A stretch of 64,000 nucleotides of DNA, from positions 736,001-800,000 of the forward strand of contig CAVZDU010000001.1 of NCBI GenBank assembly GCA_963774265.1, written 5' to 3'. Below are positions 709 through 53,768 of this stretch, piece by piece; position 1 is the first letter of the stretch; each line of letters starts with the position of its first letter. The stretch comes from an uncultured Chloroflexia bacterium. GTDB taxonomy: Bacteria; Chloroflexota; Anaerolineae; CG2-30-64-16. The notes beneath the pieces were generated by a model. The model had not been told where the DNA came from. It ran no database searches and saw nothing but the letters and a program-made list of their open reading frames with translations. A program made the position numbers and the translations under genes.

Positions 709-2046
709 TCACCCATCCAGCCAGCGGCGGATCGCGTCTTTTACGGTTGTAGCTTCGGCGGGCAGTTCCACCGGTGGGTTGCGCTGCCGTGAAACGATGT
801 CAGCGAGCGTTCCTTCGTGGTAGCCTACTTTGAATTCGCTGAACTTCAGGCCGTGTGCTGTGGAGATGACCACCACGCGTTGTCCCGGTTCAATTACGCC
901 TTGCGCGGCGAGCTTGCGCGCGACCGCCAGAGCCACACCCGTGTGCGGATCGGCGAACAGTCCACGCCGGTCGGCCAGGGCGCAGGCGTCCGCCAGCTCG
1001 TCCTCGCTGGCCTGCTCCACGACGCCGCCGAAATCGCGTAAAGCGAGGACTGCCTTCTCATAACTGACAGGATTGCCGATCCGAATGGCAGATGCGGCGG
1101 TCGAGCCTGCCGTTATGGGTTCCAGCCGGTCAAACCCTCGCCGATACGCCAGATACAAGGGATTGGCGCGCTGCGCCTGCGCTGCAGCTAAGCGCGGCAA
1201 CCGGTCGATCAGGCCGAGCGCCTTCGCCATCGCCAGCCCCTTAGCCAGCGCTGAGATGTTGCCCAGGTTTCCGGACGGAAGGACGATCCAGTCGGGCGCG
1301 GACCAGTCGAGCTGTTGGATGATCTCAATGCCGACCGTCTTCTGGCCCTCGACGCGAAGCGAGTTCATCGAGTTAGCCAGGTAGATCGAATCGTCCTGCG
1401 TGACCTCCTGGACAATTCGCATGCAGCCATCGAAGTCCGTGTCCAGCGCCAGGACGCGCGCGCCGTGTGCGATGGGCTGGATGAGCTGCGCCGTGGTGAT
1501 CTTGCCCTTCGGCAGAAAAACAATGGTGGGGATGCCGGCCGCTGCGCCGTAGGCGGCCAGCGCGGCCGAGGTGTCGCCGGTCGATGCGCAGGCTACGGCG
1601 CGCACAGCCGTGTTTCCGGTCGCCATGATATGGTTGACCGCGCTGACCAGCACGGTCATGCCCAGGTCTTTGAACGAACCGGTATGGCTGATGCCGCACT
1701 GTTTGACCCACAGCTCGTCCAGTCCAAGATCGCCGGCCAGGCGCGGCACGGGCAGGAGCGGCGTCCACCCTTCGCCCAGCGTGACGATGCGATCCGTCTT
1801 GATCTGCGGCAGCACCCACTCCTGTTTCGCCCAGACGCCCGAAGCCCCGTGCCGCAAGTTGAACAGGGTGCGCCAAGCGCCACCATCGCGAGCGCTGGCC
1901 AGGGCGGCCTCATCGTGTGCTACTTCCAGAAGCCCGCCGCACTTGGGGCAGCGGTAGATCACGCTGAATACATCATAGTGGCCTGTGCAGCCGCGTACGC
2001 AGCGGTAGGAGGCCGTGAGTGGGCAGTGGTGTTCTGGCACGTTCAC
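709..2046 (-). CDS. thrC: Threonine synthase (PLP-dependent)
   Basis: [13 protein letters not shown]-lysine motif, [34 protein letters not shown]; N-terminal CxxC...CxxC. Start placed at GTG 2046 (approximate). Confidence 0.93.
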
Positions 2047-42219: not shown

Positions 42220-42285
42220 GCAGAATGCAGTAGTCGGGTCACTGATCGGCAGTCTGCACTACTGCATCTGAGACGGAGGCTGATC

Positions 42286-42538
42286 ATGTGTCTGGGTGTT
42301 CCGGGAAAAGTGCTGAGCATTGAGCCGAATTCGCGTGGGCATGACGATGGGCAAGGTCAGCTTCGGCGGCATGGCCAAGGAAGTGTGCCTGGCCTACGTG
42401 CCCGAAGCTGAGGTCGGCGACTACGTCATCGTCCACGCCGGCTTCGCGCTCAACAAGCTGGACGAGGAAGAGGCGAAGGAGGTGTTCGAGCTGCTGAGGC
42501 AGATGGGCGAGGTTGAGGAGTTACAGGTTGACGGCTGA
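42286..42538 (+). CDS. hypC: HypC chaperone (frameshift near 42335)
   Basis: MCLGVPGKV, VGDYVIVHAGFA. Confidence 0.93.
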
Positions 42539-42594
42539 AGTCGAAGGTGAAGCGCCTTTGACTCGAACCCTCGACCTTGAATCAGGGAGTTCCT

Positions 42595-43688
42595 ATGCGC
42601 TTCATTGACGAGTATCGGAACGAAGCGGACGCCCAGAAGCTCCTCCACGCCATCGAGCGCTCGGTGACGCGCGCCTGGGTCGATCATGGAGATCTGCGGC
42701 GGGCAGACGCACACGCTGATCAAGTCCGGCATCGACCGGATGCTGCCGCCGCAGGTGACGCTGGTCCACGGGCCGGGCTGCCCGGTCTGCGTCACGCCGC
42801 TGGAGCTGATCGACCAGGCCATCGCCATCGCGCGCCGGCCCGAGGTGATCTTCACCTCGTTCGGCGACATGCTGCGCGTGCCCGGCTCCGGCGTCGACCT
42901 GCTGAGCGTGAAGGCGCAGGGCGGCGACGTGCGCATGGTCTACTCGCCGCTCGATGCCGTCAAGCTGGCGCAGAAGCACCCCGACCGCCAGGTGGTCTTC
43001 TTCGCCGTCGGCTTCGAGACGACCGCGCCCGGCAACGCGATGGCCGTGTGGCAGGCGCAGCAGCTGGGGCTGACCAACTTCTCGATCCTCTGCTCGCACG
43101 TGCTGGTGCCGCCGGCGATGGAGGCGATCCTCGGCGCGCCCGACAACCAGGTGCAGGGCTTCCTGGCCGCCGGCCATGTCTGCACGGTGATGGGCTACTG
43201 GGAGTACGAGCCGATCGCCGCGCGCTACCGCGTGCCGATCGTCGTCACCGGTTTCGAGCCGCTGGACCTGCTGCAGGGCATCTACATGACGGTCAAGGCG
43301 CTGGAGGAAGGCCGCTGGGGCGTGGAGAACCAGTACACCCGCGCCGTGACGCGCGAGGGCAACCTGCCCGCGCAGAAGCTCCTCGCGCAGGTCTTCGAGG
43401 TCGTGCGACCGGCAGTGGCGCGGCATCGGCACTGATCCCAGCGAGCGGCTACCGCCTGCGGCCCGAGTTCGCCGCCTTCGACGCCGAGCAGCGCTTCGGC
43501 GTGGCGGGCGTCACAGCCGAGGAATCGCCGCTCTGCATCGCCGGGCAGATCCTGCAGGGGCTGAAGAAGCCGCACGAGTGCACCGCCTTCGGCACGCAGT
43601 GCACGCCCGAGCACCCGCTGGGCGCGCCGATGGTGTCGCAGCGAAGGCGCCTGCGCCGCCTACTATCAGCTACGGACGGGCCGCATGA
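42595..43688 (+). CDS. hypD: HypD (frameshifts)
   Basis: [45 protein letters not shown]. Confidence 0.94.
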
Positions 43689-44783
43689 CCGACAACCTTC
43701 AATCTCAGACCTTCAACCTGCACTGCCCCATCCCGATCAGCGACTACCCGACCGTCACGCTGGCGCACGGCGGCGGCGGGCGGCTTGACGCAGATGCTGA
43801 TCGAGCGCATGTTTCGTGCCGGCCTTCCGCAACGCGACCTGGAGGTGCTGCACGACGGCGCGGTCTTGGATTTGCCTGCCCCGCCCGCCTCCCTGCAGGG
43901 GCGGGGTCGCGTCTGGCCTTCTCCACCGACTCGTTCGTCGTCAGCCCGCTCTTCTTCCCCGGCGGCGACATCGGCTCGCTGGCGGTGCACGGCACGGTCA
44001 ACGACCTGGCCATGTGCGGCGCGCGCCCGCTGGCGCTCTCGGCCGGGTTCATCCTGGAAGAAGGCCTGCCGATGGACGAGCTGTGGCGCATCGTCCGCTC
44101 GCTGAGCCGGCTGCGGCGCAGGCCGTGGGCGTGCCGATCGTCACCGGCGACACGAAGGTGGTCGACCGGGGCAAGGGGGACGGCGTCTTCATCAACACGG
44201 CGGGCATCGGCGTGATCCCGCCGGGCGTCGACATCTCGCCGCGCGCGCGTGCGCCCGGCGACGTGGTGCTGATCAACGGCGCGATCGCCGCGCATGGCAT
44301 CGCCATCATGTCGGTGCGCGAAGGGCTGGAGTTCGAGACGGCATTGCGAGAGCGACTCGGCGCCGCTGCACGACCTGGTGGCCGGCGTTCTGGCCGCGGC
44401 CGGCGAGCAGGTGCACGTGCTGCGCGATCCCACGCGCGGCGGCGTGTCCAGCACGCTCAACGAGATCGCCGGCCAGGCGCAGGTCGGCATCCGCCTGAAC
44501 GAAGCCAGCATCCCGATCGGCGACGCAGGTGCGCGGCGCCTGCGAGATCCTGGGGCTCGATCCGCTCTACGTGGCGAACGAGGGCAAGTGCCTGGTGATC
44601 GTGGCGCGCGAGGCGGCCGAGGCGGTGCTGGCGGCCATGCGCGCCCATCCCTTGGGCCGCGAGGCGGCGATCATCGGCGAGGTGGTGGCCGATCACCCGC
44701 GCAAGGTGATCCTGCGCAGCCGCATCGGCGGCCTGCGCGTCGTCGACATGCTCAGCGGCGAGCAGTTGCCGCGCATTTGCTGA
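43685..44783 (+). CDS. hypE: HypE (frameshifts)
   Basis: [51 protein letters not shown]-terminal GEQLPRIC. Confidence 0.95.
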
Positions 44784-44924
44784 AAGAATCTTGATGGCGG
44801 CCAATTACAGTGTTGCCAACTGCAGCAGGGTGATACTCAACTACTCATTGCCGGAGACGCAACCAACAACCCGGGGATTGGTGCCTAGCACCCGGCTGCG
44901 CGTTCGCGCGAATGCAGGCGCACA

Positions 44925-45563
44925 TCACGCCTCTCCAATTGCCTCGCGGTCCAACTGATCGAAGAACTGGCGCATGAACGCGCGGCGGTCTTGGGCGATC
45001 GACCTGGCCGTCGTGGTGTATAGTCGTTCGGGGATGCGGTCGAGCTTGTAGACGAACTCGTGCACGGGGGTATAGCCTTCGCCCAGCTCGGCGGGCGCTT
45101 TGGCTGCATCGCCGCCCTGTCCCGCGATCTCGCGCCACGGCCCCCGCCAGAGCGCCGTGCCCGCCGCGCCCGCGTAGGCGAACGCCCGCGCGACGCCGAT
45201 CGCGCCGATGGCGTCGAGCTTGTCGGCATCGGACAGCACTTGCGCCTCGAGCGTGCGGGGCGCGGCGCGTGCGCGGAAGCGGTGCGCCTCGATGGCGTGC
45301 GCCACCGCGTCGACGAACGCCGCCGGCTGGTCCGCGAGGATGTCACGCGCCCGCTGTGCACCCAGCAGGTGATGGCGTTCCCGGTCCTACGTTCTCGCCA
45401 CATCGTGCAGCAGCGCGGCGGTGCGGACGATGGCGAGGTCCGCGCCCTCGGCCTGCGCGATGCGCTCCGCCAGCGCCGTCACCCGCAGCACGTGATCGAA
45501 GTCGTGCCCGCCGCCGCCCGCCTCGTACAACGCGCGCGCGGTGTCAATATCTATAGTCGTCAT
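44925..45563 (-). CDS. HD-domain metal-dependent phosphohydrolase (YedJ-like), frameshifted
   Basis: [41 protein letters not shown]. Confidence 0.85.
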
Positions 45564-45599
45564 GAAACACCTAATAATCCGGCACTCTGAGTCGTGAGT

Positions 45600-46572
45600 C
45601 TATTGTCCGGCCGCGGCAGGCGGCTCGCCGTTTCCCAGGAGCCAGAGAACGCCGCCGGGCAGGCTGCCGAGAAGCATGACGGCCTGCATCAGCAGCGACA
45701 CGGCGAGCGCATGATCTGCGGGCACGCCGGCCAGGCCGAAGAAGAACGGGTAAGCCGTCTGGTTGACGCCGATGCCGCCGATGGATATCGGGACCATCAG
45801 CACGAGCGCGATCAGCGGGTTGAAGAGGAAGATGGCTGGCAGCGACATCAGGCCGCCCATCGACTGCGAAAGCACCAGTTGACGAAGGTCGTGCAGGCGA
45901 TGCCGACCAGCGCGACGCCGAAGGCAGCGCCAGCGGCCAGTAGCGGAAGCGATAGGCGTTGAACGCCTCGGAGATGCGCCCCAGAGCGGCGCCAGCGGCG
46001 CCAGCAAGCGCCAGCTGGAAGATGCGAGCTATCAGCATCGCGCAACCGCCGGCTGAGCAGCACGCCGAAGCCGAGCGCCAGCACTGCCAGCGCAACAATG
46101 GCGACCCACTCCACCTGTTGCAGGTCAGCATGTCCGGTGAAGTTCACCGCGACGATGGCGGCGACGACGGCGGTGCTCATGTAGGCCATCAGACCGATCG
46201 ATGCGATCCACGATGACGGAGACGGCTGCGTCTGCGGTGCGGTCGGTGTAGCGCGCCAGGCCGTAGCCGCGCATCACGTCGCCGCCGACGTTGGCCGGCA
46301 GGAAGTTGTTGAAGAAGAAGCCGACGAAGAGGAACCGGCAGCACCGCGCCGAACGGCACGTGCACGCCCTGGGCGCGCGAGCAGCACCTGCCACTTGACG
46401 CCGTTGACGGTGATGGCCAACATGTAGAGCGGCCAGCGCCAGCAGGAACGTACAGCGGTCGGGCCGGCGAGCTGGGCGGCCACCCGGCGCAAATCAACCC
46501 GGCAGAAGGCCGAGCGACGATCAGGCCGAGGCTGATGACGATCTTGAGGAGGGTGAGCAGTTTATCGCGCAC
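45600..46572 (-). CDS. UPF0104/LPG-synthase-TM flippase-like membrane protein (frameshifts)
   Basis: LKIVISLGLI, FFNNFLPANVGGDVMR, VDR, PISIGGIGV. Confidence 0.82.
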
Positions 46573-47538
46573 GGGGGCTCCGCCACCGCCGTACGGCGCG
46601 CACATCGTCGGTGGCCTCGGTTTGCGCCCGCTCGGCCTCCACGTCGGCCTTCTGCGACCAGGCCATGTCCCACACGACGTGCCGGTCCTTCTTGATGGCG
46701 AAGTCGTACCAGCCCGAGGAGTCGGGCCCAGGCCTCCAGCACGGCCAGCAGGAACAGCGTCCACACCAGCCGGATCGCGCCCCAGATCTCCTTGAGGGCC
46801 ACCTTGGCCACGCGGGTGTTCTGGATGCTGGAGACCGCGTAGCCGTACTTGGACTTCAGGTAGAGATGGCCGGCGTGGTTGCGCCGCCGCTGGCGCACGA
46901 AGTCCTTGATCGTGTCCGGCCCGGTGTTGTAGACGACGGCATCGGGCGCGTAGCGCACCTGCATGCCGCGCTGGACGACCAGCGCCTCGACGAACGCCTC
47001 GTCCATCGCCACGTCGGGCGGGATGCGGTCGAACACCTTGCGGAAGGCGATCATCTCGCCCAGCCGCGGGATCTCCAGGCACAGCTGGTGCTCCAGCCGC
47101 AGCCGCAGGTGCGTGAACAGGCCCGACCAGGTGATCGGGCGTGTTGACGGGGATCTTGTGCGCGCCGGTCATGCCGACGGTCGGATCGGCGAACATGCGC
47201 ACCAGGTGCTCGACCGCGTCTTCGTGCGGCAGCGTGTCGCCGCTCTCCAGCACGCAGATGTCTTCCCTGGCGTTGCCCAGGAAGATATTGATGGCCGCGG
47301 TCTTGCCCTCGCGCTTCGGTTGGATGAAGAGCTTGATGCGTGGATCGCGCGCGACGAACGATTCGACGATCGGGACGGTGTTGTCGGTGCAGCCGCTGGC
47401 GACGACGATGATCTCGCTGATCTCGACGTCGCGTAGATGTTGGGTCAGCAGCGCATCCAGCAGCCGGCCGATGTTGGCCTCTTCGTTGTAGGCCGTGACG
47501 CCGACGCTGCAGCGCAACTGGGGCTGAATTTGATCCAA
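46562..47538 (-). CDS. Glycosyltransferase family 2 (frameshifts; end approximate)
   Basis: AYNEEANI, ASGCTDNT, GKTAAIN, GEMIAFR, DEA, RQRRRNHAGH (QxxRW-like). Confidence 0.85.
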
Positions 47539-47606
47539 CAGTTCCTCCGGGGATGCTGATATTGCGATTATACCAGCATCCCATCGCGCGCGCTAATGGC
47601 GCCGCT

Positions 47607-48742
47607 CTAGCAGCGGGCGATCTCGATACCCTGGCCGACGACATGCGTTGGGGTGCGGTGGAGCGGCAGATAGCCTTGGGCGGCAAGCGGGGGCAAGGGC
47701 GAAGTGGCTTCGTCGGGCTTGTCGGACAGGGCTACCATCAGGCAGCCGCGCTCTTTGAGCCATTGACATGCCTCCAGGACCTCGCGCGTGATGCAGATCT
47801 CCTCGACGAGCCGTTGGCCCAGGGGCGTGCCCTCCGGCAGGTGGCCCATGCGTTCGACGGTCTCCTGGAATTCCCGGCGCCGGAATGCCTTGAAGGGCGT
47901 CAGGTCGCCGGCAATGCGTACGCGCATAGATGTCATCGTGCAGGGCCCGTACCTCCGGCGTCAGTTCAGACCGCATGCCGTCGATGTGTGCCATGAACTG
48001 ACGGAAGTCGGTCAACTCCAGGGCATCGATCTGGGAGAGCACGGTCTCCAGATCGACAACGCCTGCGCTGAGCATCAGGCAGATGTAGGCGACGTTGTCC
48101 TGGTTATCAGCCGTGAACGAATGATACCTCGGAGCGTTGAGCACTGCGTATACCTGCAGGAACTCGTCGTGCTTGAACACAGATCCGACGGCCTCACTCA
48201 AAGTCGCGTCGATGGCCGCGAGGCGCGCCCGGTCGATGGATTTGTCGTTGCGGCCCCGGGCGCCCAGAGCGGTCTTGTCGATGTCGACGATCGCGACGGT
48301 GCGCCGGTCAATGCTGGCGCCCTCGGCTTGCGCCCGTTCCAGGAAATCGGCCAGAGCCGTCCACCGATTCGCCTGGTAAAGCCCGTCCTGTCCGGTGATT
48401 TGCAGCGTCTGATCTCTTTCGGACCCGATGAAGCACCATCCAGGCCAACCGGTGAGTGTGCGTAGATTCTGGAAAGCGCCGCCGTCGTTCAGGAGCGTAT
48501 CGCCAAAATAGAGGATCTCGCTCGAGCGCGGGTCTGCCCGGATCTACGGTCGTCTGGGCTTGCACCAACAGCCATGCCAATGCCTGCGCGTAGGCCATGT
48601 CCAGTTTGCGCGGCGGGATTCGTCCCTCCATGCCCATTTCATGCCATGCCTCGCCGTAGCGGGGCAACCGCGTATCCATCGCGTTCAGATCCCGATAGAT
48701 CACCAGATCGCCGAAGACATCGGATAACGCACATAGTTCCAT
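47607..48742 (-). CDS. Uncharacterised HAD-like protein with apparently permuted motif order (two frameshifts)
   Basis: Reconstructed from three frames: PPRKLD ... ILYFGDTLLNDG ... AIVDIDKT ... DNQD ... VALSDKPDEA; its ATG lies 1 nt after the asd stop. Confidence 0.65.
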
Positions 48743-48743
48743 A

Positions 48744-49831
48744 TTAGAGCCAACCTTGTGCGAATAATAGTTCCGCGTTCAGCAACGCGCCACCGGCCGC
48801 GCCCCGGATCGTATTGTGTCCCAGCACCAGGAACTTGTAATCAAACAGCGGGTCGGCGCGCAGCCGGCCCACGCTCGTCGCCATGCCCTTGCCTGCCAGC
48901 CGGTCGAGCCGCGGCTGCGGCCGGTCGGGTGCGGTGTGCAGGATGATCGCCGGGTCAGGTGCGGAAGGCAGCCCCAGGCGTTGGGGTTCTCCCCGATAGG
49001 ACGTGAACGCCTCGGCCATCTCTTCCAGCGTTGCGGTTTGTCGCAGCTTCACGCTGACGGCCTCCAGGTGTCCGTTGCGGACTGCAACCCGGTTGCCTGC
49101 GCGCTGATGATGAGATCGGCCCAATGGATGCTCTCGCCTTCCAGCACACCCAAGAGCTTGCGCGGCTCAGTCTCGATCTTCTCCTCCTCGCCGCCGATGT
49201 AGGGCATCACGTTGTCGAGGATGTCCATGGACGGAACGCCGGGATAACCCGCGCCCGAAAGGGCCTGCATGGTCACAACGTTTACGGCGGCCAGTCCGAA
49301 CGCGTCGTGCAGCGGCTTGAGCGCACACACCAGATGCGTGCTGGAGCAGTTCGGGTTGGTGACGATGAAGCCAACCTGTTTACCCGACGCGCGCCGCCGG
49401 CGTTGCTGGCCCCGGATCAACGCGGTGTGTTCCGGGTTGACGTCTGGAATCAGCAGCGGCACATCGAGATCCATGCGATGCGCGGATGCGTTGGAGCAGA
49501 CCGCAAAACCCGCGTCGGCCAGTTCCTCTTCCAGCACGCCCGCGGCGTCGCCCGGGATGGCCGAAAACAACAGTCGTATGTCTCGGTCGATGGCGCCGGG
49601 TCCGGTGGGGGTGACGACTCTATCGGCCACCGCATCCGGCATGCCTCCGCGGAGCAGCCATTTGGTCGCCTCGCGATATGACTTACCCACCGAGCGGTCG
49701 GATGCAGTCAGAGCAGCGATCTCGAACCAGGGATGGTCCGCCAACAGGTGGACGAAGCGCTGGCCGACCGCGCCGGTCGCGCCCAGCACGCCCACCTTGA
49801 TCTTGTCTTGAGGCGGTGTAACACCGTTCAT
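48744..49831 (-). CDS. asd: Aspartate-semialdehyde dehydrogenase (archaeal/fungal-type), frameshift near 49095
   Basis: GATGAVGQRF, SNASAHRM, TNPNCS, MQALSGAGYPG, EEKIETE, PQPRLDR, HNTIRGAAG. Confidence 0.95.
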
Positions 49832-49832
49832 T

Positions 49833-50912
49833 TCATCCCTCCCCGTATTGTGCGAGCGCGACGATGTCGGCGTGTACGCCTGCCGCGGCGGCCTCGACGC
49901 CCGCGCCCCGGCCTTGCAGCACGAGCGGGGTGTCGGGGTAGTAGCGCGTCTGGAATGCAACCAGGTTATCGTTTCCTTTGAGTTGCCCTAACGCCGAGTC
50001 GGCCGGCACGGCCCGCATGCCTACCGCAGCGCGGCCATCTTCGATCTCCGCAACATAGCGCAATACCTGCCCTTGCGCAGCGGCCGCGGCGACCTGGGTC
50101 GCGAAGCCGGCATCCAATTCGGGCAGGCGAGCCAGGCAGTCGGCCAGGGAGAGATCTACGTAGTCGGCTGGCAGCAGCCCGGCTACTTGCACGGCGCTCA
50201 ACTCCAGATTCCACCCCAAGGTGCGCGCCAGGATCAGTGCTTTGCGGGCCACATCCATGCCGCCCAGGTCGATGCGCGGGTCCGGCTCGGTGTAGCCGCG
50301 CTGCATGGCCTCGGCCACCAGGCTGGAGAAGGGTTGGCCCGCCTGCAACCCGGTGCACAAGAATCCCAATGTGCCGCTTAGCGCGCCCTGCACCGCATCG
50401 ACCCGGTCGGCGGCACGCATCAGGCCGAGCGTGGCCTCGATCACGGGAACGGCCGAGCCGACGGTGGTTTCGTAGCGGAACCGTTTGCTGGCGGTTAAGC
50501 CATCAAACACTGCCTGCGGCCCGACCAGCGGTATCTTGTTCGCCGTGGCCACGCGGTAACCGCTCTGCAGCGCAAACTCGAGCGCCGGCACTGTCGCGTG
50601 TGATGCGGTCACATCGGCCACAATGCAGTCTCTCATGCCGGCGACCTCCACGATGGCGCTAAGATCTGGCTCATAGGTAGGCTGGCTCAGGGGGAAAGGC
50701 GCGCCGGCAGCCTTGGCGTCTGCAATCGCCTGCAAATCTTGGTCGCTGAGGCCGCCTGCATCCGCAGCCGCGCCGTCGATATCGCACCAGGCGACGATTC
50801 GAAATGCAAGACCGTCGCGTTCGGTGTGGAGCTGCCGCGCTTCGGTCAGTTGTCGCACCAGCGCCCGCCCCACCTTGCCGGCGCCGAAGATGATGAGTGG
50901 AACTCGTTTCAT
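49833..50912 (-). CDS. hom: Homoserine dehydrogenase (ThrA C-domain-like)
   Basis: GAGKVG, TANKIP, YETTVGSAVP, SGTLGF, GYTEPDPRIDLGGMDVARKALILAR, GRGAG. Confidence 0.92.
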   Translation of the reverse strand: MKRVPLIIFGAGKVGRALVRQLTEARQLHTERDGLAFRIVAWCDIDGAAADAGGLSDQDLQAIADAKAAGAPFPLSQPTYEPDLSAIVEVAGMRDCIVADVTASHATVPALEFALQSGYRVATANKIPLVGPQAVFDGLTASKRFRYETTVGSAVPVIEATLGLMRAADRVDAVQGALSGTLGFLCTGLQAGQPFSSLVAEAMQRGYTEPDPRIDLGGMDVARKALILARTLGWNLELSAVQVAGLLPADYVDLSLADCLARLPELDAGFATQVAAAAAQGQVLRYVAEIEDGRAAVGMRAVPADSALGQLKGNDNLVAFQTRYYPDTPLVLQGRGAGVEAAAAGVHADIVALAQYGEG

Positions 50913-52319
50913 GCTTCACCCAACCCAAATGCACTGTGAATGTACCGGATGCCTGCATCCGCATCGGCCGCGCCGAGCACCAGCGAGATGTTCGTCTCAG
51001 AGGACCCCTGGGCGACTGCGATGACGTTAACGCTGTTTTCACCGAGCGCAGAGAACAGGCGAGCTGCAATGCCCGGCGTGCCCCGCATTCCTTCGCCCAC
51101 CACCGCCACGATGACCACGTCAGGCTCGATGCTCACGCGATCGATCAACCGGCGCTTAATCTCTTCTCCGAACGATCCCTCCAACGCCGCGCCCACCGGC
51201 TGCGCGTCGGATTCGGGCACGACGAAGCAGATGCTCTGCTCGGAGGAGGCCTGCGAGATCATCAGCACACTTGCCCCGCGCTGAGCAACTGTTGCGAAAG
51301 TGCGGGCCGCGATGCCGGGCACGCCCATCATGCCGCGCCCTGCCACGGTGACCAGTGCCAGTCCGCGGATCACGGTCAGCGCCTTGACCGTGCCGCCGTT
51401 GGACGACTTCGGAACGACGCGCGTGCCGGGGAAAGCCGGGTTGAAGGTGTTGCGCACACTGATCGGGATGCCGCGATCGATGGCCGGCAGCATGGTCTTC
51501 GGGTGCAGCACTTTCGCGCCGAAGTAAGCCAGCTCCGCGGCCTCACTGTAGGTCAGCTCGGGCAGCGGTCGCGCGCCCTTGACGATGCGGGGGTCGGCCG
51601 TCAGCACGCCGTCTACATCCGTCCAGATCTGGATTTCGTCCGCATCCAAAGCGGCGCCGAGGATCGCAGCCGAATAGTCCGAGCCGCCCCGGCCCAGGAC
51701 GGTGGGGACGCCCTCGGGGGTGGCCGCAACGAAGCCGGTGACCACTGGCATGACGCCCTTTTCGAGCAGCGGCAGCAACCGGCCGCGCGTCGCGGTGCGG
51801 GTCGCCGCCATGTCGGGCGCAGCCGAGGCGTAGTTGTCGTCGGTGACGATTAATTCGCCGGCATCGACTAACTCGGTCTCGACGCCGCGTGCCGCGCATG
51901 GCCGCGGCCAGGATGGGAGCCATCAGGCGTTCGCCCAGCCCGGAGATGACCGCCAGCCCGCGGTCGGTCAACTCGCCGAGGATCGCGACCGCCATGCAGA
52001 GTCGCTCGAACTCGCGCACCCGCTCGTCCGTCTGTGCCTGGATCGCGGCCAGATCGTCCAGGTCATCGACCAGCGCTTCGGCCGCGTCCCGGTGCCGCGC
52101 GATGAGCGTCAGGCGCGCGTCGCGATAAGCCTGCCGGTCGCCCCTGGCTGCGGCGTTGGCCGAGTCGATCAGAAGGTCGGTGACGCCGCGCATGGCCGAG
52201 GTGACGACCACGATCTGGCGGTCGGTGCGCAACTGGTCGGAAACGATGGACGCGACCTGGGAAATCGCCTTGGCGTCGTTGACGGAGGTGCCGCCAAACT
52301 TCAGAACTTGCATGATCAT
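50909..52319 (-). CDS. lysC: Aspartokinase with two ACT domains (frameshift near 51890)
   Basis: LKFGGTSV, VTSAMRGVTD, GERL, LGRGGSDYSA, WTDVDGVLTADP, FGAKVLHP, QASSE, QGSSE. Confidence 0.95.
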
Positions 52320-52367
52320 ACTCCTGCTGTGCATGCGGGTGCTGAGCAGATGCGGTGTGCTGAGCAC

Positions 52368-52685
52368 AAAAAAGCCCCTCGCCGTTGGGGCGAGGGGCTT
52401 CGCGGTTCCACCCAATATCAGCCATCCCGCCTTTGTGTGTAGAGACGTAGCATGCTACGTCTCTACACACAAAGGCGAGAAGACTATCTTTGTCGGCCGT
52501 AACGAGGCCAGGCGGAGCGCCATACACTCCCCGGTCGGCCCTGCATCATGAGGTGGCCGGCGGCCGGATTTGAGACGCTCACTCTCGGGGGGTTTTCAGC
52601 GGGCTGATGGCGGGGCAGGCTCACAGCCGATGACCTGCCTTCTCTGGCACCTAAGCGTCGCCTACTCGTCCCGATCAACGTTTTG
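52368..52685 (-). ncRNA. T-box riboswitch, Thr specifier (ACC)
   Basis: Stem I motifs AGTA, CAGAGA, GCTGTGA and GAAA-ACC (specifier 52593-52591); antiterminator TTGGG-TGGAACC-GCG...CGC-CCCAA; terminator AAGCCCCTCGCC-CCAAC-GGCGAGGGGCTT-TTTT upstream of lysC. Confidence 0.92.
52428..52477. repeat. Perfect 50-bp palindrome with a GTAGAGACG REP core, inside the T-box
   Basis: CGCCTTTGTGTGTAGAGACGTAGCA|TGCTACGTCTCTACACACAAAGGCG. Confidence 0.92.
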
Positions 52686-52704
52686 CGTATTTCAGGTGAC
52701 GCCG

Positions 52705-52732
52705 ATTATAACCGGTGGTTCGCATATGTCAA
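52705..52732 (-). promoter_or_regulatory. Consensus sigma70 promoter of the T-box/thr operon
   Basis: TTGACA-16 nt-TATAAT immediately upstream of T-box stem I. Confidence 0.88.
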
Positions 52733-52790
52733 ATTGCGTTTCAGTTGAGGGCTATATCACCGGCTCCACGAGCCGGCTGTTGCGCAGCAT

Positions 52791-53768
52791 TCAGGTCTTA
52801 ACGAGATTCACCCAGTAGTCGATCACCTCGAACCCGCGGCGGCGGAAGAGTGAAAATGCCTCAGGATTGTCTTTCGCGTGAACGTGCACCTCTACGGAAA
52901 GGTAACCCCGGTTCGTCATCTCCGCCAGGCCGCGGTCCAGCACGTAGGACCCGAAGCGTAGGCCGCGGTACTGCCGATCCAGGCCGATCCAGGCGAGCGC
53001 TGCGATCGTCGGGTCGGGCATGGGGTACCACACCACGCTGCCCACCGCGCGGGTGCCATCCGCCACGACCAATCCCTGGTACTTGCGTCCGCCGTTGTAG
53101 CCCCAGGCGCGCAGTTGATACACGGGCTCGTCGCCCTGCCAGGGTGAACGTTCATCGATCGGGACCAGGCGCAGATTGCGTGCTTCCAGGCCCGGATTCA
53201 CGGGCTGTTCCCGGCCATGTAACGATGCAGACATGGTGACATCGCCAGGACTGCTGACCTGGTACCCGCGCTTGCCCAGCCAGGCCACCAGTTCCTTATC
53301 GTTGACAGCGCTGATCGCCATGCTCTCGGTGGAGCCGTACCAGGGCGCCCACAACCGTTCCATGATGCCGTAGAAAGGCGCATTCTGGGCCGCAAAGTGA
53401 ATGGGACAGTAGTAGAGGTGGTTTTCCGCCGCGCTCAGCAGGCGGGAGCCGAGGCGAGCCTTTCGAAAATCGGGATCGACCGCAAGCCAGGCGATGTGAT
53501 GTCGGAGTTCGGCCGAACGAGTGGCCGGGACAATGGCCGGCGGCTTAATGGCATGAACTGCCCCGGCAACCCGATCTCCGTCTGTGGCCAGGATCAGGCC
53601 GCGGGCATCGAACTCGGGCCGCACCAACACACGTTCGGCGAATTCCGCTTCGGTAATGGGCGCGTAGTGGCGGTGTCCGGCAAAGGAGCAGTTTAGGAAG
53701 GCCGTCAGTGCGGGCAGATAGGGCGCGGTGAAGTGGCGCAGGACTACCGTCGGCGCTTCGCCCACCAT
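52791..53768 (-). CDS. Tandem-GNAT acetyltransferase
   Basis: Two acetyl-CoA motifs: AVDPDFRKARLGSRLL and GLDRQYRGLRFGSYVL...NPEAFSLFRRRGF. Confidence 0.8.
   Translation of the reverse strand: MVGEAPTVVLRHFTAPYLPALTAFLNCSFAGHRHYAPITEAEFAERVLVRPEFDARGLILATDGDRVAGAVHAIKPPAIVPATRSAELRHHIAWLAVDPDFRKARLGSRLLSAAENHLYYCPIHFAAQNAPFYGIMERLWAPWYGSTESMAISAVNDKELVAWLGKRGYQVSSPGDVTMSASLHGREQPVNPGLEARNLRLVPIDERSPWQGDEPVYQLRAWGYNGGRKYQGLVVADGTRAVGSVVWYPMPDPTIAALAWIGLDRQYRGLRFGSYVLDRGLAEMTNRGYLSVEVHVHAKDNPEAFSLFRRRGFEVIDYWVNLVKT

What the first reader, a model, noticed from the sequence alone, without database searches (positions are those of the whole stretch)
47607..48742. Circularly permuted HAD protein closes the Thr T-box operon: candidate new homoserine phosphotransferase replacing ThrB
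Seen: the gene starts 1 nt after the asd stop in a lysC-hom-asd unit under a Thr T-box. thrC is at 709-2046 and no thrB is in the window. The reconstructed protein has HAD-like motifs in non-canonical order: motif III-like K (PPRKLD) and motif IV (YFGDTLLND) come before motif I (IVDIDKT) and motif II (LSDKP), with a large helical insert between I and II. Known: the canonical order is I-II-III-IV, and Pseudomonas ThrH is a HAD-fold phosphoserine:homoserine phosphotransferase that can substitute for ThrB. Inference: a permuted HAD supplies O-phosphohomoserine, the step missing between Hom and ThrC.
Basis: partly seen in the sequence, partly recalled or inferred. Interest (0 to 1): 0.8.

Follow-up and report, generated by a model that had tools for sequence, protein, structure and literature searches.

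The report
Permuted HAD enzyme replacing homoserine kinase
The gene after asd encodes an unannotated, widespread Chloroflexota protein that looks like a rearranged HAD phosphotransferase and most likely makes the O-phosphohomoserine that these bacteria, which lack every known homoserine kinase, need for threonine.

Summary
On the minus strand, a sigma-70-like promoter and a Thr T-box precede lysC-hom-asd. A fourth gene, X (47607-48742), starts 1 nt after the asd stop.

X is broken by two single-base frameshifts. lysC, asd and the next gene are broken too, and a near-identical public contig lacks the extra base at 48524. The breaks therefore look like assembly errors. Orthologues are intact at about 375 aa.

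X belongs to a large Chloroflexota family with no Pfam or NCBIfam model. It was found in at least 581 of 599 candidate stretches of species genomes. Its invariant residues are the four HAD motifs in the order III-IV-I-II, with a 150-residue helical cap after motif I. Weak Pfam and PDB matches fall exactly where a circular permutation predicts. Structure searches were inconclusive (Z below 8).

- **Linkage:** X follows asd, lysC or hom in most loci and sits between asd and thrC in some.
- **Complementarity:** 0 of 33 and 0 of 24 X-bearing genomes have thrB, against 5 of 8 and 215 of 277 X-less ones.
- **Other known types:** HomK and the Desulfovibrio-type kinase never pass their cut-offs in any X-bearing genome tested. 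The APH-type kinase and ThrH, tested in only 11 of them, leave sub-cut-off look-alikes in four.

I read X as a new ThrB substitute that works like ThrH. No activity is shown and the phosphate donor is unknown.

The parts
52705..52732 (-). Sigma-70-type promoter-like site (TTGACA, 16 nt, TATAAT) just upstream of the leader
   Evidence: 12 of 12 consensus matches. It is the only promoter-like site in 46000-53000, where shuffles give a mean of 1.1.
52383..52687 (-). T-box leader with specifier ACC (Thr) at about 52591-52593 and a UGGA bulge
   Evidence: RF00230, 58.1 bits, E 2.6e-11, full model 1-219, below gathering score 93; tRNA-Thr GGU, UGU and CGU all carry U73, while tRNA-Asn carries G73; the same GAA-A-ACC-C loop and UGGA bulge occur in another genus (L024, 71 bits).
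52371..52401 (-). Intrinsic terminator hairpin of the T-box (13-bp stem, U tract)
50909..52313 (-). lysC (aspartokinase with two ACT domains), split by a frameshift near 51811-51870; the start is approximate
   Evidence: AA_kinase 1.5e-35 and ACT_9 6.6e-42 on the C-terminal part; the N-terminal part (MQVLKFGGTS...) is in another frame.
49833..50912 (-). hom (homoserine dehydrogenase), intact; its ATG overlaps the lysC stop (ATGA)
   Evidence: Homoserine_dh, 5.5e-44.
48744..49831 (-). asd (aspartate-semialdehyde dehydrogenase), split by a frameshift at about 49049-49124; it starts 1 nt after the hom stop
   Evidence: The intact orthologue L010:166-1299 is shown.
47607..48742 (-). X: the permuted HAD-like protein, about 377 aa if read through. 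There are two single-base frame breaks, at about 48524 and about 47916.

Motifs in the numbering of the closest intact orthologue, L002:
- motif III-like: K46
- motif IV-like: G80-D81...D86
- motif I: D153-x-D155-K-T157
- cap: residues 166-313
- motif II: S339-D340-K-P-D-E-A
   Evidence: -: sequence and conservation.
- the model.
- a near-identical contig lacks base 48524. That restores ...PALSEILYFGDT..., as in the orthologues.
- intact orthologues.
46189..47538 (-). GT2-type glycosyltransferase gene 68 nt downstream on the same strand, frameshifted here. It is syntenic within the home family only and probably not part of the pathway.
   Evidence: In one search GT2 lies within 400 nt downstream in 18 of 70 loci. 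One search finds no terminator-like site between X and this gene.
709..2046 (-). thrC (threonine synthase), unlinked copy 46 kb away
   Evidence: G000:C1:736844-737815, 229.7 bits, cut-off 167.1; open frame on the minus strand.

Best explanation
X is the organism's source of O-phosphohomoserine. It is a non-orthologous replacement of homoserine kinase ThrB, built on a circularly permuted HAD (haloacid-dehalogenase-like) phosphotransferase core.

**Shown.**
- X is the fourth gene of a Thr-T-box-controlled lysC-hom-asd-X unit and is translationally coupled to asd.
- It belongs to a large, conserved, unannotated Chloroflexota family.
- Its invariant residues are the four HAD motifs, each at the right kind of secondary-structure element, but in the order III-IV-I-II. 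A 150-residue helical cap is inserted after motif I.
- The family is nearly always next to asd, lysC, hom or thrC.
- It occurs only in genomes without thrB.

**Inferred.**
- As in ThrH of Pseudomonas, Asp153 takes a phosphoryl group from a donor to form an aspartyl-phosphate. Mg2+ is held by D81/D86 and D155. S339 and K46 bind the phosphate.
- The enzyme passes the phosphoryl group to the gamma-hydroxyl of homoserine. The invariant Arg, Asp and Glu residues of the cap (R164, R173, D212, N213, D215, R287, E290) hold the homoserine.
- ThrC then pulls the reaction.
- The donor is unknown. Phosphoserine (as for ThrH) or an acyl phosphate seems more likely than ATP, because the cap has no recognisable nucleotide-binding domain.
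- The two frameshifts in the window are assembly errors, not decay.
For: **1. Context in the window.** The unit is promoter, Thr T-box, terminator, lysC, hom, asd, X, with 1-nt or overlapping gene junctions.

**2. Family.**
- 1640 proteins with E <= 1e-3 among the 8000 candidates scored. All 120 listed lack a Pfam domain, and any source name is 'hypothetical protein'.
- 420 clusters at 50% identity.
- No Pfam, NCBIfam or PDB sequence hit for intact orthologues, even at E <= 10.

**3. HAD motifs.**
- In 72 diverse members, G80, D340, P342, R17, W127 and R287 are invariant.
- K46, D81, D86, D153, D155, T157 and S339 are conserved in at least 90%.
- In the model (pLDDT 95.5, pTM 0.91) the motifs sit as follows: K46 precedes helix 49-66; strand 75-80 ends in G-D; strand 148-153 ends in DxDxT; strand 334-338 is followed by S-D-K-P.

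**4. Permutation signature.**
- P0204 matches Pfam PF00702 at 26.6 bits (gathering score 26.4), E 9.4e-6. Protein residues 145-353 align to profile positions 3-142 of 191.
- P0222 matches HAD_2 with residues 54-86 on profile 139-171 of 178, and PF00702 with residues 247-327 on profile 44-127.
- In all, 7 of 71 members give HAD-type hits, and all are placed this way (tallies).
- A profile search of PDB puts a HAD-like hydrolase (2hcf_A, E 0.13) first, with three stretches in permuted order: X 148-174 to chain 3-29, X 310-339 to chain 85-114, X 62-98 to chain 157-193.
- In the protein atlas, every named family shown after X's own clusters is HAD_2 or Hydrolase, at scores of 0.76-0.77.
- The HAD phosphatase 6iah_A aligns to model 148-367 with chain 1-165 (Z 5.6, 149 residues, rmsd 4.1).

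**5. Gene linkage.**
- asd is directly upstream in 21 of 26 loci, lysC in 2 and hom in 1.
- asd is directly upstream in 9 of 11 loci from other classes and families.
- asd or lysC lies within 400 nt upstream in 63 of the 76 loci with enough upstream DNA, out of 80 fetched.
- thrC follows X on the same strand in 15 of the 80 loci.
- P0124 is an aspartokinase-X fusion.

**6. Complementarity with thrB.**
- Among the 41 relatives (G000 included), X is in 33 and thrB over cut-off in 5. All 5 are X-less.
- thrC matches in 41 of 41.
- In the phylum sample of 301 genomes (all but G000 at least 90% complete), X is in 24 and thrB (E <= 1e-30) in 215, with an overlap of 0.

**7. Other known types.**
- HomK (TIGR02535) is over cut-off in 0 of 41.
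- The genome's ApgM-like protein is the PRK04135 phosphoglycerate mutase: 548 bits against 174 for HomK.
- It is 52-54% identical to the non-HomK paralogue of two small genomes, and only 29-30% identical to their true HomK (577 and 516 bits), which sits next to lysC.
- 18 of 33 X-bearing relatives have no ApgM-like gene at all.
- NF040667 is over cut-off in 0 of 41.
- thrB_alt and ThrH give no hit in G000 or in five high-quality X-bearing genomes.

**8. The frameshifts look like assembly errors.**
- lysC, asd and GT2 are also split.
- A 163-nt contig with 2 mismatches leaves out base 48524.
- Orthologues are intact.

**9. Precedent.** ThrH is a HAD enzyme that transfers phosphate from phosphoserine to homoserine (passage read in PMC1079889).
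Against: - **No biochemical or genetic data.** There is none for any member of the family.
- **HAD membership rests on weak signals.** Only 1 of 71 members reaches Pfam's gathering score, and by 0.2 bits. My own hhalign runs gave P values of only 0.004-0.07 per motif-bearing segment. Foldseek found nothing at E <= 1e-3.
- **Structure searches are below noise.** All VIA-align matches have Z below 8. Those over the core are generic alpha/beta domains, and the best are cap matches to lysozyme-like helices.
- **The active site was not measured.** I could not check whether the six motif residues meet in one site.
- **Related genomes are not independent.** The X and thrB distributions may reflect a few ancient events.
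- **Some genomes remain unexplained.** 3 of 41 relatives (G029, G035, G039) and 62 of 301 phylum genomes have neither X nor thrB, so further unknown routes exist.
- **A possible rival kinase.** Three complete or near-complete X-bearing genomes of another class carry an APH-type kinase at 83-96 bits to thrB_alt (cut-off 255.9).
- **Co-occurrence with a ThrH-like gene.** One X-bearing genome (G126) also has a ThrH-like gene at 210 bits (cut-off 223.4).
- **Weak thr-specific linkage.** asd and lysC also serve lysine and methionine. Linkage to thrC itself is seen in only 15 of 80 loci.
- **Incomplete assembly.** G000 is only 84% complete.
Confidence: 0.65

Rival explanations
1. X is a HAD-type phosphatase or transferase with another job in the aspartate or serine families. 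It could be a phosphoserine phosphatase replacing SerB, or a phosphatase acting on aspartyl phosphate or O-phosphohomoserine. In that case homoserine is phosphorylated by a still unrecognised kinase.
For: - HAD enzymes are mostly phosphatases.
- The cap carries charged residues suited to an amino-acid phosphate.
- No canonical SerB is over cut-off in any of the 41 relatives.
- ThrH itself is also a phosphoserine phosphatase.
- APH-type kinases below the thrB_alt cut-off exist in some X-bearing genomes.
- 62 of 301 phylum genomes lack both X and thrB, so unknown routes exist.
Against: - SerB is missing whether or not X is present, so X does not track the serine gap. It does track the thrB gap exactly.
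- A phosphatase of O-phosphohomoserine would be expected together with thrB, not instead of it.
- The operon is under a Thr T-box.
- X sits between asd and thrC in a sizeable minority of loci.
Confidence: 0.17
2. In this genome the ApgM-like protein (G000 contig 1, 367466-368587) is a HomK-type homoserine phosphotransferase, like the diverged HomK of Dehalococcoides. It fills the gap, which leaves X without that role.
For: - The GapMind 2026 preprint (passages and Appendix 3 read) shows that a Dehalococcoides protein classed as apgM complements thrB.
- G000 has one ApgM-like gene.
- Its metal-binding His of the DxxGH motif is replaced by Glu, so it is not a textbook mutase.
Against: - It scores 548 bits to the PGM equivalog NF003160 and only 174 to HomK.
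- The same orthologue (50-80% identical) occurs in thrB-bearing genomes and is never next to hom, lysC, asd or thrC.
- It is 52-54% identical to the non-HomK paralogue of two genomes, and 29-30% identical to their true HomK, which scores 516-577 bits.
- 18 of 33 X-bearing relatives and 4 of 5 X-bearing genomes outside the home family lack any ApgM-like gene.
- I could not place the E299 specificity residue, because I had no BT2402 sequence.
Confidence: 0.05
3. X is a decaying pseudogene in this organism. The two frameshifts are real.
For: There are two frame breaks in 1.1 kb. No sequencing run holds more than 0.17 of the sampled words, so the second break (about 47916) could not be checked.
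Against: - lysC, asd and GT2 in the same 6 kb are also broken while conserving full-length similarity.
- The assembly has 10 contigs but only 84% completeness, as error-rich long-read assemblies often do (my inference).
- A near-identical contig lacks base 48524, which restores the orthologous reading.
- Each piece keeps 100% of the family motifs.
Confidence: 0.05
4. The protein is not derived from a HAD enzyme. It is a flavodoxin/CheY-like alpha/beta domain with a helical insert that acquired HAD-like motifs by convergence. This rival concerns origin, not function.
For: - A HAD core that begins at strand 4 has the strand order 2-1-3-4-5 of flavodoxin-like folds (my inference).
- The best core matches are generic domains of that kind at Z about 5.
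- No HAD stands out structurally.
Against: - The DxDxT motif carries the Asp+2 residue.
- The cap is inserted exactly at the HAD C1 position.
- There is an SDKPxE motif II and a GDxxxxD motif IV.
- The only families hit repeatedly are HAD families, on both halves of the protein.
- No Response_reg or flavodoxin family is hit, even at E <= 10.
Confidence: 0.1

Closest known systems
ThrH of Pseudomonas aeruginosa (NCBIfam TIGR02137, HSK-PSP): a HAD-fold phosphoserine:homoserine phosphotransferase and phosphoserine phosphatase
   Same: - HAD-type motifs with a nucleophilic Asp in DxDxT.
- A cap after motif I.
- It can stand in for ThrB without being an ATP kinase (passage read in PMC1079889).
- This is the mechanism I propose for X.
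   Different: - There is no detectable sequence relation: no NCBIfam hit for X at E <= 10.
- X is about 375 aa, against a 203-position model for ThrH.
- The motif order is III-IV-I-II, not I-II-III-IV.
- X has a much larger all-helical cap of about 150 residues.
- X is the sole candidate for the step and is embedded in the lysC-hom-asd operon. As I recall, ThrH is an accessory isozyme; I did not read this here.
HomK / ThrB2 / TIGR02535 (BT2402 of Bacteroides thetaiotaomicron; a diverged form in Dehalococcoides)
   Same: - A non-kinase-fold replacement of ThrB found by gene context and complementary occurrence.
- It is thought to use a donor other than ATP (preprint 10.1101/2024.10.14.618325, passages and Appendix 3 read).
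- In two small Chloroflexota genomes the true HomK lies next to lysC, as X does.
   Different: - It has an unrelated fold: alkaline-phosphatase-like phosphoglycerate mutase with a phospho-serine intermediate.
- HomK is confirmed by complementation. X is not.
ThrB, GHMP-family homoserine kinase (TIGR00191)
   Same: The same predicted product, O-phosphohomoserine, and the same operon slot. In thrB-bearing relatives thrB lies beside thrC (coordinates).
   Different: - It is an ATP-dependent GHMP kinase with no relation in sequence or fold.
- It never co-occurs with X in the 342 genomes tabulated. One genome besides G000 is in both samples.
Desulfovibrio-type shikimate-kinase-fold homoserine kinase (NCBIfam NF040667)
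   Same: Another non-orthologous ThrB replacement.
   Different: - It is a P-loop kinase.
- It is not over cut-off in any of the 41 relatives, nor in five X-bearing genomes outside the home family.
- Only one or two aroK-like hits per genome are seen, none over cut-off.
Canonical C1-capped HAD phosphatases and mutases (Pfam PF00702, PF13419, PF12710; for example PDB 2hcf and 6iah)
   Same: All four motifs are present, the cap sits at the C1 position, and weak HMM matches fall on both halves.
   Different: The order is circularly permuted. My searches found no paper describing a permuted HAD: 3 papers held 'circularly permuted' plus 'haloacid dehalogenase', and the one I opened used the phrase only for a software feature.

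Membership tests
HAD superfamily (Pfam clan of PF00702, PF13419, PF12710) | Motif I, DxDx(T/V), at the C-terminal end of a core beta strand | tested here: met
   D153-x-D155-K-T157 directly follows strand 148-153. D153, D155 and T157 are conserved in at least 90% of 72 members.
HAD superfamily (Pfam clan of PF00702, PF13419, PF12710) | Motif II: Ser or Thr at the end of the next core strand | tested here: met
   S339 (at least 90%) follows strand 334-338. D340 and P342 are invariant.
HAD superfamily (Pfam clan of PF00702, PF13419, PF12710) | Motif III Lys before a helix, and motif IV acidic residues (GDxxxD-like) after the following strand | tested here: met
   P44-R45-K46 precedes helix 49-66. 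G80-D81...D86 follows strand 75-80. All are conserved in at least 90% of members. The spacing is GDxxxxD.
HAD superfamily (Pfam clan of PF00702, PF13419, PF12710) | Canonical order of motifs I-II-III-IV along the chain | tested here: not met
   The order is III-IV-I-II in all 24 and all 72 aligned members. HMM and PDB matches are placed accordingly. This is the permutation.
HAD superfamily (Pfam clan of PF00702, PF13419, PF12710) | Match to a curated family model at its gathering score | tested here: inconclusive
   - 0 of 2 close orthologues match at E <= 10.
- 1 of 71 diverse members reaches PF00702's cut-off: 26.6 against 26.4 bits.
- 6 further members give sub-threshold HAD-type hits.
HAD superfamily (Pfam clan of PF00702, PF13419, PF12710) | Rossmannoid core that superposes on solved HAD structures with the motif residues in one site | tested here: inconclusive
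   - Foldseek: no match at E <= 1e-3.
- VIA-align: HAD phosphatase 6iah_A at Z 5.6, 149 residues, rmsd 4.1, below the noise bar of Z 8.
- These aligners keep sequence order.
ThrH / HSK-PSP (TIGR02137) | Sequence membership in the family model | tested here: not met
   X gives no NCBIfam hit at E <= 10. The model finds nothing in G000.
ThrH / HSK-PSP (TIGR02137) | Phosphoserine-dependent phosphorylation of homoserine through a phospho-enzyme | not testable with these tools
   This needs an enzyme assay. It is proposed here by analogy only.
HomK (TIGR02535) | ApgM-like fold with a catalytic Ser and two metal sites | tested here: not met
   X has no NCBIfam hit and a different predicted fold.
ThrB GHMP kinase (TIGR00191) | Sequence membership | tested here: not met
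   X has no NCBIfam hit. The best genome hit to the model is 31 bits, at another locus.
T-box leader (Rfam RF00230) | Match to the covariance model at the gathering score | tested here: not met
   58.1 bits against a gathering score of 93. Still, E is 2.6e-11 over the full model length.
T-box leader (Rfam RF00230) | Conserved T-box sequence with a UGGN bulge, a terminator/antiterminator, and a specifier codon matching a tRNA whose discriminator base pairs with N | tested here: met
   The leader has GGGUGGAACCGCG, a 13-bp terminator, an ACC specifier and a UGGA bulge that pairs with U73 of tRNA-Thr. All are conserved in another genus.

The most novel reading that the evidence does not exclude
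X founds a fifth, previously unrecognised kind of homoserine-phosphorylating enzyme. It would also be the first natural circularly permuted HAD enzyme, and its permutation restores the CheY/flavodoxin strand order.

It would work through an aspartyl-phosphate intermediate with a non-ATP donor: phosphoserine, or the aspartyl phosphate made by the LysC encoded next to it (and in one case fused to it).

It would fill the thrB gap in threonine synthesis across hundreds of Chloroflexota species, including complete genomes of a second class.
Probability: 0.5. Interest if true: 0.85.

Novelty: new variant of a known kind. Interest (0 to 1): 0.78.

Why it matters

**What X offers.**
- It is a concrete, testable candidate for a whole phylum that is abundant in soils, sediments and bioreactors.
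- It would stop these genomes being scored as threonine auxotrophs.

**Structural interest.** X would add a circular permutation to the HAD superfamily. It would also be a second, independent case, after ThrH, of HAD chemistry taking over a kinase step.

**How to test it.** One cloning experiment is enough: rescue of an E. coli thrB deletion.

Tried and rejected
**Searches that found nothing or were below noise.**
- Rfam at gathering threshold found nothing in the window. The T-box appears only with the E-value threshold.
- Pfam on the three frame pieces gave no hit. Pfam, NCBIfam and PDB sequence searches on intact orthologues gave no credible hit: the only PDB rows were retroviral capsid fragments at E 0.14 or more.
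- Foldseek against PDB gave no match at E <= 1e-3.
- VIA-align wide and second-look searches gave a best Z of 6.3 and 5.3, below the tool's own noise bar. The top rows are lysozyme/chitosanase-like helices on the cap and generic alpha/beta domains on the core. I take no fold assignment from them.

**hhalign in the script box.**
- I compared X profiles with two HAD alignments, 19 SerB-like and 119 HAD-IA sequences.
- The runs gave only short hits at the motif strands, with P values of 0.004-0.07.
- A column-permuted copy of the X alignment did not give one long alignment (score 26.7), probably because of the 150-residue cap.

**Phyletic and context checks that did not discriminate.**
- SerB profiling was uninformative, at 0 of 41 over cut-off.
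- The neighbourhoods of the two X loci without asd (L069, L070) hold unrelated genes.
- T-box leaders were found upstream of lysC in only 1 of 5 further loci scanned.

**Sequencing runs.**
- No RNA holder was listed, and no run holds more than 0.17 of the sampled words.
- The second frameshift site was not covered.

**Earlier notes of this scan.** There were none on this family.

**Not completed.**
- I could not place the E299 residue of HomK on the ApgM-like protein, for lack of a BT2402 sequence.

**Literature.**
- Seven searches ran. None returned a paper on this family, on a HAD-type ThrB replacement in Chloroflexota or on a permuted HAD.
The list of the 16 prototrophs without thrB in the GapMind 2026 preprint could therefore not be checked for Chloroflexota. 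The main text has no occurrence of 'Chloroflex'.
Full report
**What is in the window**

Everything below lies on the minus strand.
- A perfect sigma-70-type promoter-like site (52732-52705, 12 of 12 consensus positions) precedes a T-box leader at 52687-52383. The leader scores 58.1 bits to RF00230, E 2.6e-11, over the full model. That is below Rfam's gathering score of 93, so the default scan missed it.
- A 13-bp terminator hairpin with a U tract follows at 52401-52371.
- Four tightly packed genes come next:
  - lysC, about 52313-50909;
  - hom, 50912-49833, whose ATG overlaps the lysC stop;
  - asd, 49831-48744, starting 1 nt after the hom stop;
  - X, 48742-47607, starting 1 nt after the asd stop.
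- A GT2 glycosyltransferase gene starts 68 nt further on, on the same strand. No terminator-like site lies in between. X is therefore not shown to close the operon.
- thrC lies 46 kb away at 709-2046.

**The T-box senses threonine**

By the alignment to the model, the specifier loop reads GAA-A-ACC-C. The antiterminator bulge reads UGGA, whose last base must pair with the tRNA's discriminator base. In this genome tRNA-Thr(GGU), (UGU) and (CGU) all have U73, while tRNA-Asn(GUU) has G73. So ACC is read as Thr, not AAC as Asn. The same loop and bulge recur in a 71-bit T-box upstream of lysC in another genus (L024). Four other loci scanned had no T-box at E <= 0.001.

**The frameshifts**

X is in three frame pieces. 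Read against the orthologues, each break is one extra base: one between ...PAL and SEILYFGDT... at about 48524, the other between ...IYART and IAGDLTPFK... at about 47916.
- lysC, asd and the GT2 gene in the same 6 kb are also split, yet keep full-length similarity.
- The assembly has 10 contigs but only 84% completeness.
- No public run holds more than 0.17 of the sampled words.
- One 163-nt contig from a soil metagenome (48493-48656, 2 mismatches) leaves out exactly one base at 48524. That restores the orthologous reading.
- The second site was not covered.

I take both breaks as assembly errors. Real decay is a minor rival.

**The family**

*Spread among close relatives.*
- A search of 41 related genomes with the middle piece found X in 33. 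That is 24 of 24 genomes of the home family and 8 of 16 other families of the class.
- The open frames are 375-400 aa.

*Annotation.*
- Intact orthologues (L010:1303-2424, 374 aa; L002:1291-2421, 377 aa) have no Pfam or NCBIfam hit even at E <= 10, and no credible PDB sequence hit.

*Size.*
- 1640 proteins reached E <= 1e-3 among the 8000 candidates scored. All 120 listed lack a Pfam domain, and any source name is 'hypothetical protein'.
- There are 420 clusters at 50% identity.
The best 80 are labelled Anaerolineae, Anaerolineales, Caldilineales, Thermoflexales/Thermoflexus, Chloroflexia, Chloroflexota/Chloroflexi or, in one case, 'uncultured bacterium'.
- In a phylum-wide sample of 301 genomes (all but G000 at least 90% complete), X occurs in 24, including all 18 genomes of a family in another class.

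**A permuted HAD**

*Conserved residues.* Across 24 orthologues (A1) and 72 diverse members (A2, mean column identity 34%), the best-conserved residues are:
- P44-R45-K46;
- G80-D81...D86;
- D153-x-D155-K-T157, followed by G-A-R-G-R-N-D;
- T210-x-D-N-Q-D215;
- T281-P-F-K-x-F-R287-x-x-E290;
- S339-D340-K-P342-D-E344-A.

*The model.* An AlphaFold model of the L002 protein is very confident (pLDDT 95.5, pTM 0.91). Its elements run in this order:
- K46, then helix 49-66;
- strand 75-80, ending in G-D;
- a helix, strand 101-106, a hairpin and a helix;
- strand 148-153, ending in DxDxT;
- an all-helical block, 166-313;
- a helix, then strand 334-338, followed by S-D;
- a helix, then strand 365-368.

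In textbook HAD terms this reads helix(K)-S4(motif IV)-S5-S1(motif I)-C1 cap-S2(motif II)-S3. That is the canonical chain cut between S3 and the motif III helix.

*Independent weak signals that agree.*
- P0204 hits PF00702 at 26.6 bits (gathering score 26.4), E 9.4e-6, with residues 145-353 on profile positions 3-142 of 191.
- P0222 hits HAD_2 with residues 54-86 on profile 139-171 of 178, and PF00702 with residues 247-327 on profile 44-127.
- Five further members give sub-threshold hits to PF00702, PF12710, HAD_PNKP, Acid_phosphat_B or DUF2608, all placed the same way (7 of 71 members). I recall DUF2608 as a member of the HAD clan but did not check.
- In the family tallies, the HAD families and DUF2608 lead the lists.
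- A profile of A2 against PDB sequences ranks a HAD-like hydrolase (2hcf_A) first. Its E-value of 0.13 is not significant, but its three stretches are in permuted order.
- In the protein atlas, every named family shown after X's own clusters is HAD_2 or Hydrolase, at 0.76-0.77.

*Signals against a firm assignment.*
- Foldseek gave nothing.
- VIA-align stayed below Z 8. The one HAD in its list, 6iah_A, has Z 5.6 with model 148-367 on chain 1-165.
- My hhalign runs gave only P values of 0.004-0.07 per motif segment.

*A side observation (inference).* A HAD core that starts at S4 has the strand order 2-1-3-4-5 of flavodoxin/CheY-like domains. That would explain why the core's best structural neighbours are periplasmic-binding-protein-like and other generic alpha/beta domains. 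It would also put the catalytic residues in the same order as in CheY.

**Link to threonine synthesis: context**
- In the 26 loci of the close and class-level relatives, asd is directly upstream of X in 21, lysC in 2 and hom in 1. The other two loci start at a contig edge.
- Two of these loci read lysC-asd-X-thrC and thrC-lysC-asd-X.
- In 11 loci from other families and classes, asd is directly upstream in 9. The other two have unrelated neighbours.
- Among 80 named species loci, which partly overlap the sets above:
  - asd precedes X in 67 and lysC in 3;
  - by the strict rule of at most 400 nt, asd or lysC precedes X in 63 of the 76 loci with enough upstream DNA;
  - thrC follows X on the same strand in 15.
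- One cluster (P0124, 841 aa) is an aspartokinase-ACT-X fusion.

**Link to threonine synthesis: occurrence**
- Among the 41 relatives, thrC is found in all: 40 over cut-off and one partial hit in a fragmented assembly.
- thrB is over cut-off in only five genomes (G025, G027, G033, G036, G037). These are five of the eight that lack X.
- In the phylum sample, thrB (E <= 1e-30) is in 215 of 301 genomes and X in 24, with no overlap. 62 genomes have neither.
- Five of the 215 (G200, G066, G302, G197, G293) are flagged as unpublished. Without them the count is 210 of 296.
- Related genomes are not independent, so I give no P value. X-bearing lineages span at least two classes.

**The other known ways to make O-phosphohomoserine**

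*HomK (TIGR02535).*
- It is never over cut-off in the 41 relatives.
- The GapMind 2026 preprint warns that a diverged HomK of Dehalococcoides scores as apgM, so I examined the ApgM-like protein of G000.
- It is the PRK04135 phosphoglycerate-mutase equivalog: 548 bits, against 174 for HomK.
- Its orthologues, 50-80% identical, occur alike in thrB-bearing, X-bearing and 'neither' genomes. They are never beside hom, lysC, asd or thrC.
- Two small genomes of the phylum carry both a true HomK (577 and 516 bits, beside lysC) and a second paralogue (176 bits). The G000 protein is 52-54% identical to the second paralogue and 29-30% identical to HomK.
- 18 of 33 X-bearing relatives have no ApgM-like gene, ten of them at least 95% complete. 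Neither do 4 of 5 X-bearing genomes outside the home family.

*Desulfovibrio-type kinase (NF040667).* I took this lead from earlier notes of this scan. It is over cut-off in 0 of 41 relatives and 0 of 5 X-bearing genomes outside the home family. At most one or two aroK-like hits are seen per genome, none over cut-off.

*thrB_alt and ThrH.* Both are absent from G000 and from five high-quality X-bearing genomes.

*Caveats.*
- Three X-bearing genomes of the other class have an APH-type kinase at 83-96 bits (cut-off 255.9).
- One X-bearing genome has a ThrH-like gene at 210 bits (cut-off 223.4).
- Three relatives (G029, G035, G039) have none of X, thrB or HomK.

**Mechanism**

*Shown:* the motifs, the context and the occurrence pattern.

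*Inferred:* X acts like ThrH, a HAD enzyme that takes phosphate from phosphoserine onto an enzyme group and passes it to homoserine, with no ATP-dependent activity (passage in PMC1079889).
- D153 would be the nucleophile and D155 the acid/base.
- D81 and D86 would hold Mg2+.
- S339 and K46 would bind phosphate.
- The invariant charged cap residues would bind the amino-acid substrate or substrates.

The donor is open. SerB is below cut-off in all 41 relatives whether or not X is present, so the data neither support nor exclude phosphoserine. The adjacency to LysC, and the one fusion with it, keep aspartyl phosphate as a speculative donor.

**Novelty**

None of my seven literature searches returned a paper on this family, on a HAD-type ThrB replacement in Chloroflexota or on a circularly permuted HAD.
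- The gut-microbiome reconstruction (PMC9026213, passages read) and the GapMind 2026 preprint (passages and Appendix 3 read) describe only the HomK/ThrB2 replacement.
- The preprint still lists thrB as missing in 16 of 208 prototrophs.

The function (making O-phosphohomoserine), the chemistry (HAD phosphotransfer) and the ThrH precedent are all known. The family, its permuted architecture and its role as the sole candidate in a whole phylum are new. Hence I rate it a 'new variant of a known kind'.

**Verdict**

My confidence that X supplies O-phosphohomoserine is about 0.65. My confidence that it is a permuted HAD derivative is about 0.8. The decisive test is rescue of an E. coli thrB deletion by an intact orthologue and its loss in a D153N mutant.

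Noticed in passing
window 40944-52313, minus and plus strands: Many genes in this stretch are split between reading frames while keeping full-length similarity: lysC (about 51811-51870), asd (about 49049-49124), the GT2 gene (46189-47538) and, by eye, the hydrogenase-maturation-like genes at 40944-44800. This looks like an indel-rich assembly. Gene calls from this genome will under-report intact genes.
   Followed up: partly
G000 contig 1, 367466-368587 (L029:1465-2622, minus strand); outside the window: The PRK04135-type ApgM-like 'phosphoglycerate mutase' has Glu where the solved Pyrococcus enzyme (2zkt) has the metal-binding His of its DAAGH motif. Here it reads DTAGE. Whether this whole Chloroflexota orthologue group shares the change, and what it does to activity, was not examined.
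   Followed up: no
proteins P0124, P0141, P0205, P0213, P0216, P0219, P0223, P0241: Fused forms of the family exist: aspartokinase-ACT-X (P0124) and X with a C-terminal JAB/MPN domain (P0141). More diverged members carry N-terminal extensions of about 205-245 aa (P0213, P0216, P0219, P0223, P0241) or about 430 aa (P0205), with no Pfam hit at E <= 0.001. In three of these whose sequences I read, motif I reads DLDQT.
   Followed up: partly
L176 (G061:C1:104943-109121) and L177 (G048:C2:29957-34129): In two 1.5-Mb genomes of the phylum, the true HomK (577 and 516 bits to TIGR02535) lies beside an aspartokinase-like gene. That is the same kind of slot X occupies elsewhere.
   Followed up: partly
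genomes G029, G035, G039 (relatives) and 62 of 301 genomes of the phylum sample: These genomes have thrC but none of X, thrB or a HomK over cut-off. At least one further way of making O-phosphohomoserine may await discovery in this phylum.
   Followed up: no
G126:C1:1605716-1606291: A ThrH-like gene (210.3 bits, just under the 223.4 cut-off of TIGR02137) coexists with X and an ApgM gene in one complete genome of the class.
   Followed up: no
window 46189-47538 and loci L002, L005-L010, L021, L022, L024-L026: A GT2 glycosyltransferase gene is conserved directly downstream of X on the same strand within the home family. By the strict 400-nt rule it is there in 18 of 70 species loci. No link to threonine synthesis is apparent.
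   Followed up: no
thrC hits: thrB-bearing relatives have a ThrC scoring 308-325 bits beside or near thrB. Most X-bearing genomes have a longer ThrC type scoring about 210-235 bits, and often a second thrC-like gene. The two threonine synthase types may track the two ways of making the substrate.
   Followed up: no
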